A stretch of DNA of 64,000 bases, from contig JAXHVO010000059.1 in the NCBI GenBank assembly GCA_034189135.1, positions 7,336-71,335 on the forward strand, read 5' to 3'. The notes under the pieces were generated by a model that did no database searches, had not been told where the DNA came from, and was given only the letters and a program-made list of their open reading frames with translations. The translations under genes and the position numbers were made by a program. Position 1 is the first letter of the stretch, and each line of letters opens with the position of its first letter. Positions 11,522-60,055 of this stretch are shown here, piece after piece. Origin of the DNA: Thermodesulfobacteriota bacterium. GTDB lineage: Bacteria > Desulfobacterota > Desulfobacteria > Desulfobacterales > JAUWMJ01.

Positions 11522-11555
11522 GTGCATAACCTCGCAACGAAATTCAGTAGTCGTT

Positions 11556-11653
11556 TACGGTTTGAAACTTGAAAATAGAAAGTAGAAATTAGGGAGAGAT
11601 GAAACGAGTTTGCGAATTGAAAGCCAAATTTCCAATTTCTATTTTCTAATTTC
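11556..11653 (+). repeat. Family-2 GAAA-rich intergenic repeat, copy 2a
   Basis: ACGGTTTGAAACTTGAAAATAGAAAGTAGAAATTAGGGAGAGATGAAACGAGTTTGCG...AAGCCAAATTTCCAATTTCTATTTTC. The purine arm pairs with the pyrimidine arm. It lies in the fliR-flhB gap. Confidence 0.7.
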
Positions 11654-11732
11654 TTCGTTTAATAAAAGCTTAAAAATTTATTGTTAACTATAATCTGTCA
11701 TTTTTATCTTGTTTGGTTATTAACTAATTCTT

Positions 11733-19691: not shown

Positions 19692-19698
19692 ATGGAGG

Positions 19699-20030
19699 AT
19701 CGGGGAGTTTTTCAATCTGTACTCAGTTCGTTCGGGGAAGCGCCCATTGGCCCGTATCAGCCTTAACAATCATTTCGAGAAACTGGCGTACGGTCCGCCT
19801 AGGCGGACTGAGATTCGATTTGAACCAGCCCCAAGGGACAGAATCCCACGGCAGCGTTGATCGTCTCTGCCTGTGTGTATTTAACTGAGAAGATAGGGGG
19901 CGTGTACAGAGTGCTGGGATTATTTGTTAAGGCTGATACGGGCCAATGGGCGCTTCCCCGAACGAACCACTAACAATCATTAAAGCTCAAACGGTTCATA
20001 AAAAAGGCCTAGGCAAAAATTGCCCGGTGG
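19699..20030 (+). repeat. Family-1 palindromic element, copy A
   Basis: 44-nt arms 19726-19769 and 19924-19967 are perfect reverse complements (44/44). They flank a 154-bp core. Outer arms are GATCGGGGAGTTTTTCAATC... and ...AAAATTGCCCGGTGGC. Confidence 0.85.
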
Positions 20031-20089
20031 CTTTATACGGGAAACAAGCAAGGGCGCCTAAATGCTTAAAATTAAATATCTATCAGCTT

Positions 20090-20105
20090 TGGTACATCTT
20101 TTGCA
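20090..20105 (+). promoter_or_regulatory. sigma54 promoter candidate upstream of flgF
   Basis: TGGTACATCTTTTGCA with GG-N10-GC spacing, 46 nt upstream of the flgF ATG. Confidence 0.55.
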
Positions 20106-37361: not shown

Positions 37362-37449
37362 AAAAAAAAATAAAAACCCTGCCGGGGGGATGGCAGGGTT
37401 TTAAGGAGGCGGGAATGAAGGAAAGGAGAGAAACTTCATTCCGTTTGAT
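37362..37449 (-). ncRNA. Predicted sigma54-dependent small RNA (about 88 nt) with anti-SD motifs
   Basis: Lies downstream of a perfect minus-strand sigma54 promoter. Hairpin 1 is GGAAUGAAG/CUUCAUUCC with loop UUUCUCUCCUUUC. The linker is CGCCUCCUUAA. The terminator hairpin is AACCCUGCC/GGCAGGGUU followed by UUUAUUUUUUUUU. No ORF is present. Confidence 0.45.
37375..37402. terminator. Bidirectional Rho-independent terminator
   Basis: 9-bp GC-rich stem AACCCTGCC/GGCAGGGTT. The + side has TTTT. The - side has a much stronger T-tract (complement of the A9-T-A5 run at 37362-37376). Confidence 0.7.
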
Positions 37450-37459
37450 TTAATAAGTA

Positions 37460-37475
37460 TGCAACTTTAGTGCCA
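37460..37475 (-). promoter_or_regulatory. sigma54 promoter (minus strand) driving the predicted sRNA
   Basis: The minus strand reads TGGCACTAAAGTTGCA, a perfect TGGCAC-N5-TTGCA consensus. Confidence 0.65.
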
Positions 37476-37542
37476 AGTAAGTTTGGAAGTTGTAAGGTCT
37501 AAAAACGGGAAACCTGGGTGACAAACAAAACAATCGATGTGG

Positions 37543-37877
37543 GATCGGAGAGTATTTCAATCTCCACTCAGTTCGTCCGGAGGAGCGCCCATTTGCCCGT
37601 ATCAGCCTTAACAAATAAGTCCGGCACTCTGTACACGCCCCCTATCTTCTCAGTTAAACCCATACAGGCAGAGACGATCAACGTTGTCGTGGGATTCTGT
37701 CCTTTGGGGCTGGTTCAAATTGAATCTAAGCGAGATAGCTGCCGAACGCCGGTTTCTCGAAATGATTGTTAAGACTGATACGGGCAAATGGGCGCTCCTC
37801 CGGACGAACTACTAACAATCATTAAAGCTCAAACGGTTCATAAAAAAGACCATTGATAAGAAACTCACCGAGCCATC
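37543..37877 (+). repeat. Family-1 palindromic element, copy B (core inverted)
   Basis: Arms 37571-37614 and 37767-37810 pair 43/44. The outer arms are oriented as in copy A, but the 152-bp core is the reverse complement of the A/D core. Confidence 0.85.
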
Positions 37878-37944: not shown

Positions 37945-37972
37945 TAAAGTTTTTAACAGAATATCCCGATAC
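37945..37972 (+). promoter_or_regulatory. sigma28 promoter candidate upstream of cheW
   Basis: CTAAAGTTT...N16...CCCGATAC. It shares the CTAAAG(T/G)TTT -35 region with the flgM and OMP promoters. Confidence 0.5.
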
Positions 37973-38064
37973 AAATAAAAAGACAATGCTAGTATGAAAG
38001 GGCAAAAACCTGAAACCGATGAATGCAAAAATATATCAATCATCAATATGGGAGGTATAAGAAA

Positions 38065-38689: not shown

Positions 38690-40567
38690 ATGTTTAAGAA
38701 TATGAAAATAAGTACCAAAACAAGTTTGGTTATCGCCGTTGCCTTGATTTCGATTTCAGTTATTTTAGGTTTTGTCTCAGTTATGCAGTTGATGCGAAAC
38801 GGGAAGCTGGCTGTTGCCCAGATAGAAAGGCTAGGCACTGATAACATTGAAAGGATAAAGGCGGACGGAAAAAGCCAAATACAAGCCTTTCGTGAGGAAC
38901 GCATGTTGCGGGAAAAGGAATACCTGAAGTCACAGGTTCAGACAACTATGAGTGTCCTTAAGAAAGCCTTAAAAGATGCCACATCCTTAGACAGCGGAAG
39001 TGTACTAACTGAACAGGTTAAAAAGGCCATCATACTTGAACAACAGGAGAGCATCGCGGGTTTTATCGGCGCACTTCGCTATGGTCCCGAAAATAAGGAT
39101 TACTTCTGGATCAACGACATGCATCCGAAGATGGTCATGCATCCTTATAAACCGCAGCTGAACGGTAAAGATCTCTCTGAAAGCAAGGACCCGAACGGCA
39201 AAAGGCTATTTGTGGAATTTGTCAAAGTCTGTCGTGAACAGGGTGAAGGATTCGTGGATTATTACTGGCCCAAGTACGGTGCAGACCAGCCGCAACCCAA
39301 ACTTTCATTTGTAAAGCTTTTTAAAGAATGGAACTGGGTGGTGGGCACCGGAGTATATATCGATGATATCGACAAAATAGTGAATATCAAAAGGGGAGAA
39401 TTGGAGAACGAAATAAAAGCGGTTATGGCTGATATGAACAAACAGGTTGATTCAACCAAACGAGAATTTCAAAAAAATGTCCGACAGGTCATTATGCTAA
39501 CAAGTGTAATTTCGCTGATTGCTTTGGCGGTGGTATTGGCCGGGTCTTATTTGTTTGCCAAATGTAATATAACAAAACCGATCAGCCGAATCATAGAGGG
39601 GATGAATGAAAGCGCCGAGCAGGTGGCATCCGCATCCGGGCAGGTTTCATTTTCCAGTCAGTCTCTGGCGGAAGGCTCATCGGAGCAGGCGGCCTCCATT
39701 GAAGAAACATCAGCATCCTTGGAAGAGATGTCCTCCATGACAAAGCAGAATGCCGAGAATTCAAAACAGGCGGATGCTCTAATGCAGGAGTCAAACCAGA
39801 CGGTAGGCCGTGCCAGCACATCGATGACAAATCTTAAGGATTCCATGATCGATATCACAAACGCAAGCCGGGAGACATCCAACATTATAAAGACCATTGA
39901 TGAAATTGCCTTCCAGACCAATCTTCTGGCACTGAATGCAGCAGTAGAAGCAGCCAGAGCCGGTGAAGCCGGAGCCGGATTTGCTGTGGTGGCCGAAGAG
40001 GTTCGAAATCTGGCCATGCGCTCTGCAGATGCCGCTAAGAACACTGCTGAACTGATAGAAGACACGGTTAAGAAAGTAAAAAATGGATCCGAGCTGGTAA
40101 ATACGACTTCTGATGCTTTTGCTGAAGTGGCTGCCAGTTCCGCCAAGGTTGCCGAATTGATCGGAGAGATTGCTGCAGCGTCAAACGAACAGGCGCAGGG
40201 AATTGATCAGGTCAATGTAGCGGTCACCGAAATGGACAAGGTCACCCAGTCGAATGCCGCCGGAGCAGAGGAATCCGCGTCAGCTTCGGAACAGATGAAT
40301 GCACAGGCGGAAGAGATGAAGCGTATGGTGAATGAGCTCGTAGCGATGGTCGGCGGAAGTGCAAAAGGAGCCGGAGATGGGGCAGGATCATTCGGGTGGA
40401 GAAAAATGATTCCAGGCGATGGAGCAGGAAAAAGACCAGAAATATCCCAAAAGGCTCCTGCTGAAACACCGGGCAAGGGAGTAAAGAAGATTGTGCATCA
40501 CCAGGCAAAGGAAGTTAATCCCAAACGGGTCATTCCTTTGGATGATGCGGAATTTAAAGATTTCTAA
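38690..40567 (+). CDS. Methyl-accepting chemotaxis protein with a periplasmic Cache-type sensor
   Basis: Two TM helices flank the Cache-like segment [25 protein letters not shown]...[12 protein letters not shown]. The MCP signalling domain reads [37 protein letters not shown]. The C-terminus is EFKDF. Confidence 0.93.
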
Positions 40568-43094: not shown

Positions 43095-44333
43095 ATGTTT
43101 AATTTAAATGAAATTTTAATAGCCTCTGCTGTTATCTCAGTAGGTGCATTTATGGTAGCGGCTGTCTTGTACATGATTTATAAAAAGACACTAACTTTTA
43201 TGCTTTGGGTAAGATTGATGCCTGGAATAATCATTCTCTGCATCGATCTTTTTACCTGGGGAAGATTTGGCGTTTATAATGTGCTGATTAGTGCAGTTAT
43301 GCCGCTCATAGGTGTTAGCCTTATGGTTGCGAACCTTATCTACGTTGCGAAGAAACTGTCTGTTCCCCTGATACGTATTATCGAGGGCTTGAGCGAAGGA
43401 TCTAACCAGGTGGCATCCGCTTCAGGACAGATTTCGTCTGCAAGCCAGTCACAGGCGGAAGGTGCTTCAGAGCAGGCTGCATCCATAGAGGAAACATCTT
43501 CTTCCCTTGAAGAGATGTCGTCCATGACCAAGCAAAATGCTGACAATGCCGGCCAGGCGGATAAGCTTATGCAGGAAGCCAATCAGGTCGTTGTTGAAGC
43601 GAATGATGCCATGGGCAAACTGACCACTTCTATGGAGAATATCTCCGAAGCAAGTGAAGAGACACAGAAAGTAGTAAAGACAATAGATGAGATAGCCTTC
43701 CAGACAAACCTGCTTGCACTGAATGCAGCAGTAGAGGCCGCCCGTGCCGGTGAAGCAGGGGCCGGTTTTGCTGTAGTAGCGGAAGAGGTAAGAAATCTTG
43801 CACTACGTTCTGCGGATGCAGCCAAAAGCACGGCAGAACTTATTGAAGGTACCGTCAAGAAAGTAAGTGATGGGTCGAAATTAGTGGAAAGGGCCAACGA
43901 AACCTTCAGCAAAGTGGAAAAGAGTGCTTCTAAGGTAGGTGAGCTGGTAGGTGAAATAGCCGCTGCATCTAATGAACAGGCCCAGGGTATTGAGCAGGTG
44001 AACACAGCGGTAGCTGAAATGGATAAGGTTGTACAGACAAATGCCGCCAATTCTGAAGAAACGGCCTCCGCATCTGAAGAGATGAATGCCCAGGCTGAAG
44101 AAATGAAGGGGTTTGTCAGGAGTCTGTCAGTTCTGGTCGGAGAGAGTGAGAATGGAAAAGATAACGAGCAGGACGAGGACGCTGCGCTCATGCAACCAAA
44201 AACCAAACCTCAGAGGCTCGCTTTCGCTGCAAAGATGAAAGCAGGCACTGGGGAAATGGCTGTTGTTCAAAAAAAAGAAGTGAAACCGAATCAGGTGATC
44301 CCTTTGGATGATGCTGATTTTCAGGATTTTTAA
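43095..44333 (+). CDS. Methyl-accepting chemotaxis protein (membrane-embedded N-terminus, no periplasmic domain)
   Basis: About four predicted TM segments precede a signalling domain highly similar to the 38690 MCP ([37 protein letters not shown]). The C-terminus is DFQDF. Confidence 0.92.
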
Positions 44334-54198: not shown

Positions 54199-54231
54199 TA
54201 TTGGTCTACTTGTAACCGTTCAATGAATGAT

Positions 54232-54336
54232 GAATTTAGAAAATAGAAATTGGAAATTTTAGGCCTTCACCTCGTAACAACGTCTTATCTTATCCTAATT
54301 TCTACTTTCTGATATCAAGTTTCAAGCCGTGAACGG
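54232..54336 (-). repeat. Family-2 GAAA-rich repeat, copy 2b (between feoA and feoB)
   Basis: The reverse complement aligns with copy 2a: ...CGGCTTGAAACTTGATATCAGAAAGTAGAAATTAGG...AAAATTTCCAATTTCTATTTTCTAAATTC. Confidence 0.7.
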
Positions 54337-54343
54337 CTTCTTT

Positions 54344-56294: not shown

Positions 56295-56342
56295 TTTCTT
56301 AAATTATGTTTATCCTCTTAACCTGTTAGAATTAATTGAGGA

Positions 56343-56668
56343 GGCCGGGGGTTTCTCCTTAAAGGTTTTTGGTAAGCCGTTGCGTTTTAATGATCGTCAA
56401 CGGTTCGCCTTGGGGATGGCCTATTCGCCCGTACAAGCCTTAACAAATTATTACAGTGCTTTGCAGCCGCCCCCTATATTCTGCGTTACGCTCATACAGG
56501 CAGAGACGATCATCGCCATCGTGGGAATCTGTCTACTGGGGCTGGCTCAAATCTTATTTCAGCGAGATAGCTGCCGTACGTCAGTTCCTCGATATTATTG
56601 TTAAGGCTTGTACGGGCGAATAGGCCATCCCCAAGACGAACAGAGCAGGGATTGAAAAACTCCCCGAT
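56343..56668 (-). repeat. Family-1 palindromic element, copy C (whole element in reverse orientation)
   Basis: Arms 56403-56446 and 56598-56641 pair 43/44. The long outer arm is on the left and the short GATTGAAAAACTCCCCGAT arm is on the right. The core-to-arm relationship is the same as in copy A. Confidence 0.8.
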
Positions 56669-56701
56669 TTCTCAATTAATTATAAATACGATAAACTCAA
56701 A

Positions 56702-57424: not shown

Positions 57425-57458
57425 TCCCTGTTGAAGGGTGAATCGAGACAGTTATATT

Positions 57459-57797
57459 GATGGGTCGGGGAGTTTTTTAATCTCTACTCAGTTCATCCGG
57501 AGAAGCGCCCATTTGCCCGTATCAGCCTTAACAATGATTTTGAGAAACCGGCGTACGGTCCGCCTAGGCGGACTGAGATTCGATTTGAACCAGCCCCAAA
57601 GGATAGAACCTCACGGCAGCGTTAATCATCTCTGCCTGTATGGATTTAATTGAGAAGATAGGGGGCGTGTACAGAGTGCTGGAATTATTTGTTAAGGCTG
57701 ATACGGGCAAATGGGCGCTTCTCCGGATGAACCTCTATCAACCATTAAATAACAAACAATTCACCAAAAATGCCATTAATAAGAAACTCCCCGATGC
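57459..57797 (+). repeat. Family-1 palindromic element, copy D
   Basis: Arms 57491-57534 and 57689-57732 pair 44/44. The core is about 90% identical to copy A. It fills the convergent gap between the hydrolase gene and cinA. Confidence 0.85.
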
Positions 57798-57814
57798 CTC
57801 AGTTATGCTATTCT

Positions 57815-59062: not shown

Positions 59063-59130
59063 TTTTAGTAATCGTCCGGGGGTTTATGGCAAACATTAAA
59101 AAAGTTCATGGGTCCAAGGGTCACGGCTAT

Positions 59131-59950
59131 AGTAATTCTCATAAATATGTTCCGTTTTAAATGAGGAAACTGTCTGAGTGTATTAGAAATCGTTAAGAAA
59201 GAACATAAGTGCAATATGGTTAATTTATTGTAGAAGTTGTCATACTGAAATTAATTACTCAAGTTTCGCACCCCGGTTTGGCTGAAAGTAATGCCCTGAC
59301 TTCAGGTAACATATAAAATCAGATGTGAATCGAAACGGTTATATTTTTTTCTGTAAGGGGATATGTGGGTCATCTATTACCCCTTTTCGCAGTGTCCGGA
59401 TATTTGGGATAGACCATCCCTTTTATATTGTTTAGCAACGGATAGACTTTATCCCAACTATCCGGACACGCTGCAACCGATTCAATTCATGTCCCCTGGA
59501 AGAAAATAATATAACCCTAAATGAGCGTAAACAAAACTGAGAACTTGTATAAAACACCTCATTTATAGCTTTTTTTAAGCGACAAGCGGCTTGCTTGCAA
59601 CTCTTGCATCAGTGAAATATAAATTATCAAAAAACCACTCAATTTTTTTACCCTGCTGGAAAGCCGATGATACTCCATCTTCATCGTTGCCAAGGGCTCG
59701 CAGTAAATTACTACGGCTTCGCCCTTGGACGCCTTGAATCTGGGGCACCCTCGATTTTCGCTCAATTAGGGTATAACTGTCTCGATTCACACCCTTAACA
59801 CCAATCGGCGCTTTAACAATTCCGGCTCCACCGCAGATAAGGGGTGCGAAACTTGAGTAATTATAATAAGAAAGATAGTTCTTTCTTTACGATTTCTTAT
59901 ATACGAGTTTTTCATCGTTTAAAACGGAATATATTTATTAGAAACAGTAT
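59131..59950. repeat. Nested inverted-repeat non-coding island
   Basis: Outer IR 59131-59274 faces 59841-59950, including an exact 23-nt TTAATTACTCAAGTTTCGCACCCC / GGGGTGCGAAACTTGAGTAATTA pair. Inner IR is GTGAATCGAAACGGTTATA (59326) versus TATAACTGTCTCGATTCAC (59771-59789). The central hairpin is at 59389-59474. No credible ORF. Confidence 0.75.
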
Positions 59951-60055
59951 ATTCAGCACCGCATCTGTTTCCTGTCCACATTCGATGTTCGGTTTTTGTA
60001 ATTTTCTCTTCTTTACCTGCTGCTGTACGGGACATTTCCTTCTTTTGCCTTGGGA

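What the first reader, a model, noticed from the sequence alone, without database searches (positions are those of the whole stretch)
19699..20030. Four-copy palindromic intergenic element (about 335 bp) whose 44-bp arms co-vary between copies
The copies are A 19699-20030, B 37543-37877, C 56343-56668 (reverse) and D 57459-57797. Each has a short outer arm (GATCGGGGAGTTTTTCAATC...), a 44-nt inner arm, a 152-154-bp core, the reverse-complement inner arm, and a longer outer arm ending ...AAGAAACTCnCCGA. Inner arms pair 44/44 in A and D and 43/44 in B and C. The arms differ between copies: GTTCGTTCGGGGAAG in A, GTTCGTCCGGAGGAG in B, GTTCATCCGGAGAAG in D and GTTCGCCTTGGGGATGG in C. Every difference is mirrored in that copy's partner arm. 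Either pairing is under selection or the two arms are continually homogenised against each other. The core keeps conserved blocks (TTTGAACCAGCCCCAA, GATCGTCTCTGCCTGTAT, GAGAAGATAGGGGGCG). It splits into two subtypes: A and D carry the perfect palindrome GTCCGCCTAGGCGGAC where B and C have GCAGCTATCTCGCT. There is no transposase or credible ORF, and all copies are intergenic. I do not recognise it as a known RNA family or MITE.
Basis: seen in the sequence. Interest (0 to 1): 0.7.

Follow-up and report, generated by a model that had tools for sequence, protein, structure and literature searches.

The report
Transposable mini-element with a flipping core
The four repeats are copies of a small gene-less mobile element of Desulfobacteraceae whose 240-bp centre is found in either orientation; its two 44-bp arms are most likely kept identical by DNA copying between them, so it is an unusual variant of an ordinary kind of mobile DNA rather than a new RNA.

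Summary
Four copies exist, the 44-nt arms pair 44/44 or 43/44, and arm differences between copies are mirrored.

With 28 more copies from metagenomes the covariation holds: 98.1% of cells paired against 88.7% in shuffles, and 21 pairs changed on both sides.

The element is a MITE-type transposable element of about 336 bp.
- It has imperfect terminal inverted repeats (GAGGGGTCGGGGAGTTT...).
- It makes an 8-bp duplication of an AT-rich target (9 of 23 perfect).
- Copies A, B and D are absent from the same sites in related genomes. Only C is shared with relatives.

- In B the whole inner module (arms plus core) is inverted relative to the outer arms.
- Across all copies the two orientations occur 16:16, which needs at least 8 independent flips.
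- Copy A has lost its right end.

Arm mismatches show no G·U bias. Mirrored changes are as often transversions as transitions. Mirrored changes also arose in place at orthologous loci. This points to DNA-level arm-to-arm conversion and occasional crossover, not RNA selection.

There is no Rfam hit, no ORF, no sigma-70 consensus and no recombinase nearby. A recombinase-driven mobile switch is not excluded.

The parts
19694..20009 (+). Copy A, orientation state 1, right end truncated (about 26 bp of the long outer arm and its terminal repeat are lost). Short outer arm 19694-19725, arm 19726-19769, core 19770-19923, arm 19924-19967, remnant of the long outer arm 19968-20009.
   Evidence: Related genomes L034 and L036 have an empty site here, and the sequence from 20010 onward is native flank. 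L040 and L041 carry an 80-bp remnant at the same junction.
37539..37877 (+). Copy B, state 2: the inner module is inverted relative to the outer arms. Short outer arm 37539-37570, arm 37571-37614, core 37615-37765 (reverse complement of the A/C/D core), arm 37766-37809, long outer arm 37810-37877. The flanking 8-mers are degenerate (CAATCGAT / AATTATTT).
   Evidence: (I1, I2, I9). The element is absent from the cheD-cheW spacer of relatives L043-L046.
56338..56673 (-). Copy C, state 1, on the minus strand. Long outer arm 56338-56402, arm 56403-56446, core 56447-56597, arm 56598-56641, short outer arm 56642-56673.
   Evidence: It is retained at the orthologous site, in the same state, in L008, L012 and L028, at 92.6-95.3% identity over the element.
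56330..56337 (.). Target-site duplication of copy C, left: AATTAATT.
56674..56681 (.). Target-site duplication of copy C, right: AATTAATT.
57459..57800 (+). Copy D, state 1. Short outer arm 57459-57490, arm 57491-57534, core 57535-57688, arm 57689-57732, long outer arm 57733-57800. Flanking AGTTATAT (57450-57457) and AGTTATGC (57801-57808) match 6 of 8.
   Evidence: It is absent between the hydrolase gene and cinA in L008 and L028.

Best explanation
What it is
It is a family of about 336-bp non-autonomous transposable elements (MITE type) confined, as far as these searches reach, to a clade of Desulfobacteraceae.

Each copy has:
- imperfect terminal inverted repeats of about 20 bp (GAGGGGTCGGGGAGTTTYTC);
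- a short (about 30 bp) and a long (about 65 bp) outer arm;
- an inner module of two 44-bp inverted arms around a 151-154-bp core.

How it moves
A transposase supplied from elsewhere, not identified, inserts it into AT-rich 8-bp targets resembling AATTAATT and duplicates them. The duplication is shown. The transposase is inferred.

What happens inside
The two arms act on each other as DNA. Events without crossover (templated repair or gene conversion) copy one arm onto the other. This keeps them identical while they drift in sequence. It is most effective in the outer 24 bp. Crossovers between the arms flip the module.
- Shown: both orientations occur, flips are recurrent, and mirrored changes arose in place.
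- Inferred: the enzymology. It could be RecA-type recombination between the arms, repair of a hairpin or cruciform heteroduplex, or template switching.

The orientation of the module relative to the outer arms looks neutral (16:16).

The core and the inner 20 bp of each arm are conserved as sequence. Whole copies evolve 2-5 times more slowly than third codon positions at orthologous sites. So some sequence-specific role is likely, such as protein binding or an effect on neighbouring genes. That role is not identified.
For: Mobile element
- 8-bp direct duplications are perfect in 9 of 23 copies and match at 6 or more of 8 positions in 16 of 23. They include non-palindromic ones (AACTATTC, ATATAGAT, AATTATTT, GATTAGTT). 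None of 10,000 permutations reached the observed mean.
- Related genomes have empty sites for D, A and B.
- At least 16 copies lie in one assembly, CAJHXW01.
- All copies are intergenic, in every gene arrangement.
- Decayed copies exist: L005, L024, L011 10538-10660 and the L040 remnant.

Flipping
- B's core is the reverse complement of that in A and D at 91% identity.
- States are 12:12 among 24 complete non-redundant copies, and 16:16 with partial copies.
- A neighbour-joining tree needs at least 8 changes of state. The closest paralogues, L004 and L026 (95.2% identical), differ in state.
- The bases just outside the arms do not flip. So the exchange lies within the arms.

Arm homogenisation at the DNA level
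- 98.1% of cells are paired, against 88.7 +/- 0.5 in shuffles. 95 cells changed on both sides, against 19 in shuffles. Slid controls reach at most 45%.
- Unmirrored differences are 10 of G·U type on one strand, 7 on the other and 13 of other kinds. That is what random mutation gives.
- Mirrored variants are about 15 of transition type and 16 of transversion type. This is my tally from the pair types.
- The outer terminal repeats of the same copies are imperfect and do not co-vary.
- At least 5 mirrored changes arose in place at orthologous loci: winC / L012 / L008 at arm positions 7-9, L007 / L015 at position 6, and L018 / L021 at position 16.
- Copy A has lost a terminal repeat and so is probably immobile, yet its arms are 44/44.

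Not an RNA and not coding
- Rfam gives nothing, even at E = 10.
- The core folds no better than shuffles: z = -0.6 and -0.2.
- There is no 3-base periodicity and no conserved ORF.

Precedent
Arm-to-arm gene conversion with rare spacer inversion is described for large palindromes. See the title and abstract of PMC3723533, listed.
Against: - No locus has been seen in both orientations. Three orthologous sets all keep their state. So inversion in place is inferred from paralogues only.
- Homogenisation is uneven. The outer 24 bp carry 28 extra mirrored states and 8 unmirrored cells. The inner 20 bp carry 3 and 22. A simple uniform conversion model does not predict this. The conserved inner half could be a protein recognition site.
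- Copies at orthologous sites are constrained. For C, the core is 94-98% identical against 68-76% at third codon positions. For the other two sets, the element is 94-95% identical against 81-91%. This hints at a function the model does not name.
- 44 bp is close to the lower limit for efficient RecA-dependent exchange (my own knowledge).
- The autonomous partner element was not found.
Confidence: 0.62

Rival explanations
1. A mobile inverton. The inner module is a site-specific invertible switch. A dedicated serine or tyrosine recombinase encoded elsewhere binds the conserved inner 20 bp of each arm and flips the core. The core carries a promoter or other orientation-dependent signal. The MITE spreads this switch around the genome.
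For: - Both orientations occur equally often, and flips are recurrent.
- The inner 20 bp of the arms and the core are conserved as sequence while the outer arm halves drift.
- Copies are constrained at orthologous sites.
- The core length (151-154 bp) is in the range of known switches (my own knowledge).
Against: - Orientation is stable across three orthologous sets, down to about 86% genome identity.
- No sigma-70-type promoter is conserved in the core.
- Copies also sit between convergent gene ends. A and B sit upstream of native sigma-54-like and sigma-28-like promoters that relatives also have.
- Among the 17 ORFs scanned against Pfam (flanks of A-D and 44.4-60.8 kb) there is no recombinase.
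- Site-specific recombination does not explain homogenisation of a 24-bp stretch outside the conserved site.
Confidence: 0.14
2. A structured RNA. The element is transcribed, and the 44-bp stem is kept by selection on RNA pairing. It could serve as an RNase III processing site, a stabiliser or terminator of neighbouring mRNAs, or the closing stem of a small RNA made from the core.
For: - Compensated changes in the stem are very strong.
- One local hairpin in the core is replaced by a different hairpin at the same place: CAGC-TATCTC-GCTG against GTCCGCC-N2-3-GGCGGAC.
- Many copies lie right after gene ends.
- Flipping would turn G·U into A·C. That could by itself enforce strict Watson-Crick pairs (inference).
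Against: - Rfam gives no match at E up to 10.
- There is no G·U enrichment on either strand.
- Transversion-type swaps are as common as transition-type swaps.
- The core is no more stable than shuffles on either strand, and its predicted helices have no double-sided changes.
- Half the copies would present the antisense core to any outside promoter.
Confidence: 0.1
3. Nested elements. The 240-bp inner unit is an independent small transposon with 44-bp terminal repeats. It inserted, in either orientation, into a specific site of an older MITE of about 95 bp. The two 'states' are then separate insertion events.
For: - The inner unit is a self-contained inverted-repeat structure.
- A pentamer, CAATC, occurs on both sides of it in some copies.
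- Remnants with only the outer parts exist: L040, and L011 10538-10660.
Against: - A metagenome scan keyed on the inner arm found the unit only inside the outer arms. It was never alone, apart from decayed copies.
- The imperfect extensions just outside the arms (CTCTGCTCT / CGCTGACAATC) keep their side in both states.
- Closely related copies differ in state while sharing the same outer arms.
- The remnants are deletion products with ragged ends.
Confidence: 0.04

Closest known systems
Bacterial MITEs, for example Correia elements of Neisseria, ERIC/IRU, RUP and Nezha (my own knowledge)
   Same: Small, without an ORF, bounded by terminal inverted repeats, flanked by target duplications, dispersed in intergenic DNA, and present or absent between related genomes.
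   Different: - The duplication is 8 bp in an AT-rich target. Correia elements duplicate TA.
- There is a second, much longer and nearly perfect internal inverted repeat, and a module that occurs in both orientations.
- I know of no bacterial MITE described with a flipping centre. Full-text searches found none.
Invertons, or site-specific DNA switches: fimS, hin, the Bacteroides fragilis Mpi-controlled promoters, and the Clostridioides difficile flgB switch of 154 bp between 21-bp repeats (my own knowledge)
   Same: A segment of about 150 bp between inverted repeats is found in either orientation. Several copies share repeat sequences. One copy lies upstream of a flagellar operon.
   Different: - No recombinase and no promoter were found.
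- Orientation is stable at orthologous loci.
- The repeats are 44 bp, and their outer halves drift and are homogenised.
- The whole thing is itself transposable.
Large palindromes with arm-to-arm gene conversion, such as human Y-chromosome P6 (PMC3723533), and small hairpin-associated inversions in plastid genomes (papers listed)
   Same: The arms are kept near-identical by conversion within one molecule while they diverge between lineages. The spacer occasionally inverts. No RNA is needed.
   Different: The scale is 44 bp against kilobases. The organism is a bacterium. The palindrome sits inside a mobile element.
Foldback-type transposons of eukaryotes (my own knowledge)
   Same: Long internal or terminal inverted repeats around a middle segment. 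They are prone to recombination.
   Different: They are unrelated in sequence, host and size. Here the long repeat is internal to separate short terminal repeats.

Membership tests
MITE (non-autonomous transposable element with terminal inverted repeats) | Terminal inverted repeats at both ends | tested here: met
   GAGGGGTCGGGGAGTTTYTC at the left end and its imperfect complement at the right end in nearly all complete copies.
MITE (non-autonomous transposable element with terminal inverted repeats) | Target-site duplication of fixed length | tested here: met
   The duplication is 8 bp. 9 of 23 are perfect and 16 of 23 match at 6 or more of 8 positions. 0 of 10,000 permutations reached the observed mean.
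MITE (non-autonomous transposable element with terminal inverted repeats) | Small, with no transposase or other conserved ORF | tested here: met
   About 336 bp. There is no conserved open frame and no codon periodicity.
MITE (non-autonomous transposable element with terminal inverted repeats) | Insertion polymorphism: empty sites in relatives | tested here: met
   D is absent in L008 and L028. A is absent in L034 and L036. B is absent in L043-L046.
MITE (non-autonomous transposable element with terminal inverted repeats) | A cognate autonomous IS with the same terminal repeats | tested here: inconclusive
   No terminal-repeat match outside known copies in the window and 31 loci. The complete genome and ISfinder could not be searched.
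Inverton (site-specific invertible switch) | Inverted repeats flanking a segment that is found in both orientations | tested here: met
   Both states occur among copies, 16:16.
Inverton (site-specific invertible switch) | Both orientations at one and the same locus, within or between populations | tested here: not met
   Three orthologous sets keep one state each. Read-level heterogeneity could not be tested.
Inverton (site-specific invertible switch) | A cognate invertase | tested here: inconclusive
   None among the 17 window ORFs scanned against Pfam, which cover the flanks of all four copies and part of 44.4-60.8 kb. Most ORFs between 0 and 44 kb were not scanned. One acting in trans cannot be excluded.
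Inverton (site-specific invertible switch) | A promoter or other orientation-dependent signal inside the segment | tested here: inconclusive
   No conserved sigma-70 consensus in the cores. Other promoter classes were looked for only by eye.
Structured non-coding RNA | Match to a described family | tested here: not met
   Rfam 15 at gathering threshold and at E up to 10 gave no match.
Structured non-coding RNA | Covariation with wobble intermediates on the transcribed strand | tested here: not met
   G·U-type cells number 10 on one strand and 7 on the other, with 13 of other kinds. Transversion-type swaps are as common as transition-type swaps.
Structured non-coding RNA | Core folds better than chance, with supported helices | tested here: not met
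   z = -0.61 and -0.21. The core helices have no double-sided changes.

The most novel reading that the evidence does not exclude
The inner module is a self-contained, recombinase-operated switch or regulatory cassette that travels on a MITE. A transposon would then seed phase-variable, or at least orientation-selectable, control points next to genes, here flagellar, chemotaxis and housekeeping genes. Hosts would retain some of them under purifying selection, as with copy C.
Probability: 0.12. Interest if true: 0.8.

Novelty: new variant of a known kind. Interest (0 to 1): 0.42.

Why it matters
- It gives a compact bacterial example of concerted evolution between the two arms of an inverted repeat. 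It shows that perfect 'compensatory' covariation can arise without any RNA. This is a useful caution for screens that find RNA structures by covariation.
- It defines a previously undescribed MITE family, with its target preference, in an environmentally important group of sulfate reducers. The family breaks short-read assemblies: many contigs end inside copies.
- If the flipping proved to be enzyme-driven and regulatory, it would be the first transposable inverton.

Tried and rejected
- **Rfam.** Searched at the gathering threshold on the window and three loci, and at E up to 10 on copies A and C. Nothing was found except an unrelated tRNA.
- **Protein coding.** One bottom-strand frame is open in many copies and reads as a hydrophobic stretch (IQAETIIA.VG.CLLGL). 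But it has no conserved start, frame-shifting indels, variable stops, and equal variability at the three codon positions (0.102, 0.096, 0.092). Rejected.
- **Structured RNA in the core.** Folding is no better than shuffles on either strand. The alignment folds are weak on both strands, at -10.7 and -13.2 kcal/mol.
- **Sigma-70 promoter in the core.** No conserved site.
- **Sigma-54 and sigma-28 motifs in the element.** Looked for by eye only, and none was convincing. Native sigma-54-like and sigma-28-like promoters lie outside copies A and B.
- **Nested independent inner transposon.** Rejected, because the inner unit never occurs alone and the bases next to the arms do not flip.
- **Autonomous partner or recombinase.** No terminal-repeat match outside known copies. 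None of the 17 ORFs scanned against Pfam is a transposase or recombinase.
- **Plasmid, phage and viral collections.** No true match.
- **Literature.** No description of such an element.
- **Flipping tied to transposition rather than time in place.** The three closest paralogue pairs all differ in state and 0 of 4 orthologous contrasts do. Given tree lengths this is not significant. Left open.
- **Chance hits discarded.** L001 (Zobellia), L023 (inside a coding region) and L047-L049.

Full report
**1. The observation**

A repeat search recovers the 44-nt inverted arms:
- 100% complementary in A (19726-19769 / 19924-19967) and D (57491-57534 / 57689-57732);
- one mismatch each in B (37571-37614 / 37766-37809) and C (56403-56446 / 56598-56641).

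The spacers are 151-154 bp. The conserved 20-mer of the arm occurs 8 times in the window, against 0.00 in shuffles. The arm sequences differ between copies, and each difference is mirrored in the partner arm.

**2.

In B the whole inner unit is inverted. B 37571-37730 is the reverse complement of A 19808-19967 and of D 57573-57732 at 91%, while B's outer arms are collinear with those of A and D. I call the A/C/D arrangement state 1 and the B arrangement state 2.

**3. More copies**

- A scan of one genome per species found one real hit, a Desulfobacteraceae MAG (L002), plus a chance hit.
- A metagenome scan gave 29 loci. One of them, L023, is a chance match inside a coding region.
- Many loci come from a single assembly, CAJHXW01, which holds at least 16 copies.
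- A profile search found no further copies in the window.
- Plasmid, phage and viral collections hold none.

**4. It is a transposable element**

I aligned 24 non-redundant complete copies, with state-2 modules flipped in silico. They align end to end. The ends are GAGGGGTCGGGGAGTTTYTC... and ...GAGAAACTCCCCGACCCCTC, which form an imperfect terminal inverted repeat.

The 8 bases on either side are direct repeats:
- perfect in 9 of 23 copies;
- matching at 6 or more of 8 positions in 16 of 23;
- including non-palindromic ones such as AACTATTC, ATATAGAT, AATTATTT and GATTAGTT;
- no permutation out of 10,000 reached the observed mean.

The target is AT-rich and resembles AATTAATT.

Relatives give empty sites for three of the four window copies.
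- *D.* L008 and L028 are collinear with window 50.8-63.8 kb at about 86% identity. They lack D between the hydrolase gene and cinA.
- *A.* L034 and L036 (83-85% identical to the window) lack A. Their sequence shows that TAGGCAAAAATTGCC... after window position 20009 is native flank, so A has lost its right terminal repeat. L040 and L041 carry, at exactly the same left junction, an 80-bp remnant. In it the tip of the left repeat is fused to the long outer arm and the inner module is gone.
- *B.* The cheD-cheW spacer of relatives L043-L046 lacks B.
- *C.* Only C is shared, with L008, L012 and L028, in the same state.

All copies are intergenic. They lie between tandem, divergent and convergent genes, with no orientation bias. 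No transposase, recombinase or additional terminal repeat is present in the held DNA. The autonomous partner is therefore unknown.

**5. The module flips**

- Complete non-redundant copies split 12:12 between the states. With partial copies the split is 16:16.
- On a neighbour-joining tree of the normalised copies, at least 8 changes of state are needed.
- The closest paralogues differ in state: L004 and L026 (95.2% identical), L013 and L020 (90.5%), L016 and B (91.4%).
- The bases immediately outside the arms keep their side in both states. The exchange therefore lies within the arms.
- The inner unit was never found without the outer arms. This argues against an independent nested transposon.
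- Orthologous sets do not differ in state: C / L008 / L012, L007 / L015, and L018 / L021. Flipping is therefore slow on the scale of species divergence. It has not been seen at a single locus.

**6. The arms**

On the 24-copy alignment:

| Measure | Observed | Shuffles (0 of 500 reach the observed value) |
|---|---|---|
| Cells forming a standard pair | 98.1% | 88.7 +/- 0.5% |
| Pairs changed on both sides | 21 | 10.3 |
| Cells changed on both sides | 95 | 19.2 |

Sliding the partner columns by 1-3 drops pairing to 32-45%.

The pattern does not look like selection on RNA.
- The unmirrored differences are 10 of G·U type on one strand, 7 on the other and 13 of other kinds. Random mutation gives this.
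- The mirrored variants are about as often transversion-type (C-G to G-C, A-T to T-A and so on) as transition-type. This is my tally.
- The imperfect outer terminal repeats of the same copies are not homogenised.

Mirrored changes arose in place at orthologous loci.
- Arm positions 7-9 differ among C, L012 and L008 on both arms. The change includes an adjacent double change.
- Position 6 differs between L007 and L015.
- Position 16 differs between L018 and L021.

Independent compensatory point mutations at exactly matching sites are very unlikely over such short divergence. Copying of one arm from the other is the economical explanation.

Copy A is probably immobile, and it differs by 13% or more from every other copy. 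Its arms are still 44/44.

The process is uneven.

| Arm region | Extra mirrored states | Unmirrored cells |
|---|---|---|
| Outer 24 bp | 28 | 8 |
| Inner 20 bp | 3 | 22 |

In the inner 20 bp there is a recurrent C-to-T change at position 36. So the outer half behaves as 'identity kept, sequence free'. The inner half behaves as 'sequence kept'.

**7. The core**

- Rfam gives no match, even at E = 10.
- Folding energy is no better than shuffles on either strand, with z = -0.6 and -0.2.
- Predicted core helices have no double-sided changes.
- There is no conserved ORF and no codon periodicity.
- There is no conserved sigma-70 consensus.
- One local hairpin (CAGC-TATCTC-GCTG) is replaced in four copies by another (GTCCGCC-N2-3-GGCGGAC) at the same place.

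**8. Constraint at orthologous sites**

| Comparison | Element | Core | Third codon positions of flanking genes |
|---|---|---|---|
| C against L012 | 95.3% | 98.0% | 74-76% |
| C against L008 | 92.6% | 94.0% | 68-73% |
| L007 against L015 | 95.0% | 94.0% | 81-91% |
| L018 against L021 | 93.9% | 92.7% | about 83% |

Short adjacent non-coding flanks are 84-91% identical. Retained copies are therefore clearly constrained relative to synonymous-like sites, but only somewhat more than neighbouring intergenic DNA.

At C the element fills almost the whole divergent spacer. It leaves 43 and 28 bp to the two start codons. The promoters of both genes must therefore lie in or at the element ends (inference). 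An outward TTGAAA or TTGAGG lies about 16-17 bp from each end, next to the AT-rich duplication. This is compatible with hybrid promoters but was not tested.

A and B sit upstream of native promoters that relatives also have. One is sigma-54-like: TGGTACATCTTTTGCAT, read by eye, before flgF. The other is sigma-28-like: TAAAGTTT-N11-CCCGATAC before cheW. Those two copies are therefore not needed to express the downstream genes.

**9. Mechanism**

*Shown*
- The element is mobile and duplicates 8 bp.
- The module occurs in both orientations.
- Flips are recurrent.
- The arms are homogenised in place.
- There is no RNA-type signature.

*Inferred*
- The two arms interact as DNA, by recombination between the inverted repeats or by repair or template switching on a folded strand.
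- Non-crossover outcomes copy one arm onto the other.
- Crossover outcomes invert the core.
- Events seem to start at or near the outer base of the arms, which would give the outer-to-inner gradient.

The same pair of outcomes is described for much larger palindromes (PMC3723533, title and abstract seen) and for hairpin-associated small inversions in plastid DNA (papers listed).

The main rival is a site-specific switch served by a recombinase acting in trans. The conserved inner arm halves and the constraint on the core keep it alive. Stable orientation at orthologous loci, the lack of a promoter, and the homogenised 24-bp outer halves speak against it.

**10. Verdict**

This is a new MITE family with an unusual, recombination-prone inner palindrome. 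It is an interesting variant of a known kind of element, not a new class of RNA. It is also a clean example of covariation produced by DNA copying rather than by selection on structure.

Noticed in passing
window 59128-59951: An ORF-less stretch of about 825 bp. It is bounded by a 42-nt imperfect inverted repeat (59128-59169 / 59910-59951). A second, nested inverted repeat lies inside it (ACTCAAGTTTCGCACCCC 59259-59276 / GGGGTGCGAAACTTGAGT 59841-59858). The orthologous spacer in L008 is only about 263 bp, so this looks like another, unidentified insertion. Rfam gives only a chance miRNA hit.
   Followed up: partly
window 37373-37460: A terminator-like hairpin that could act in both directions lies after cheD (37373-37402). 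It is followed by a block, AAGGAGGCGGGAATGAAGGAAAGGAGAGAAACTTCATTCCGTTTGATTTAATAA. This block is almost identical in relatives L043, L045 and L046, while the sequence further upstream of the hairpin and further downstream toward cheW diverges. It could be a 12-codon ORF (MKERRETSFRLI) with a strong ribosome-binding site, or a 9-bp hairpin.
   Followed up: no
window about 37945-37975, and the flgF upstream region near 20086-20102: Native promoter-like motifs conserved in relatives. One is sigma-28-like, TAAAGTTT-N11-CCCGATAC, upstream of cheW. The other is sigma-54-like, TGGTACATCTTTTGCAT, upstream of flgF. Both were read by eye and their coordinates are approximate. Copies B and A lie upstream of them.
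   Followed up: partly
L040 9760-9840 and L041 5375-5439: At exactly the insertion junction of window copy A (after AATTAGAT) these relatives carry an 80-bp remnant. The tip of the left terminal repeat is fused to the long outer arm, and the whole inner module is deleted. The closer relatives L034 and L036 are empty at this site. This means either a hot-spot hit twice or an old insertion lost precisely.
   Followed up: partly
L011 10194-10660: Two elements lie head to tail and share one AATTAATT. The second is a decayed copy in which the core and most of both arms are deleted (GTTTGTCCGGAGAATCGACCATTCGC|TGACAAAC). This shows that the inner palindrome is prone to deletion.
   Followed up: yes
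window 11546-11675 and 54210-54341: An AT-rich intergenic inverted-repeat pair: 83 nt at 76% and 50 nt at 82%. One member lies in the fliR-flhB spacer and the other upstream of feoB. It could be a shared regulatory motif or another small repeat family (I7 and I15).
   Followed up: no
window 39587-40567 and 43374-44333: Paralogous 3' halves, 74-79% identical, of two chemoreceptor-like genes (628 and 412 aa). They lie in a segment of about 7 kb between cheD and the HDOD gene that relative L040 lacks.
   Followed up: no
arm position 36 (for example window 37774 in B): A recurrent one-sided C-to-T change at the same arm position (AAGCC to AAGTC) in at least five independent copies. L007 and L015 share it, so it has stayed unconverted since they split. 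It could be a mutation hot-spot, such as a methylated cytosine.
   Followed up: partly
L032 and L042 (Logan contigs of SRR24907505): Independent assemblies of the same organism break inside the long outer arm of A and of B, where the two copies share an identical stretch of about 37 nt. Many metagenome contigs likewise end inside copies. The family therefore fragments short-read assemblies.
   Followed up: partly
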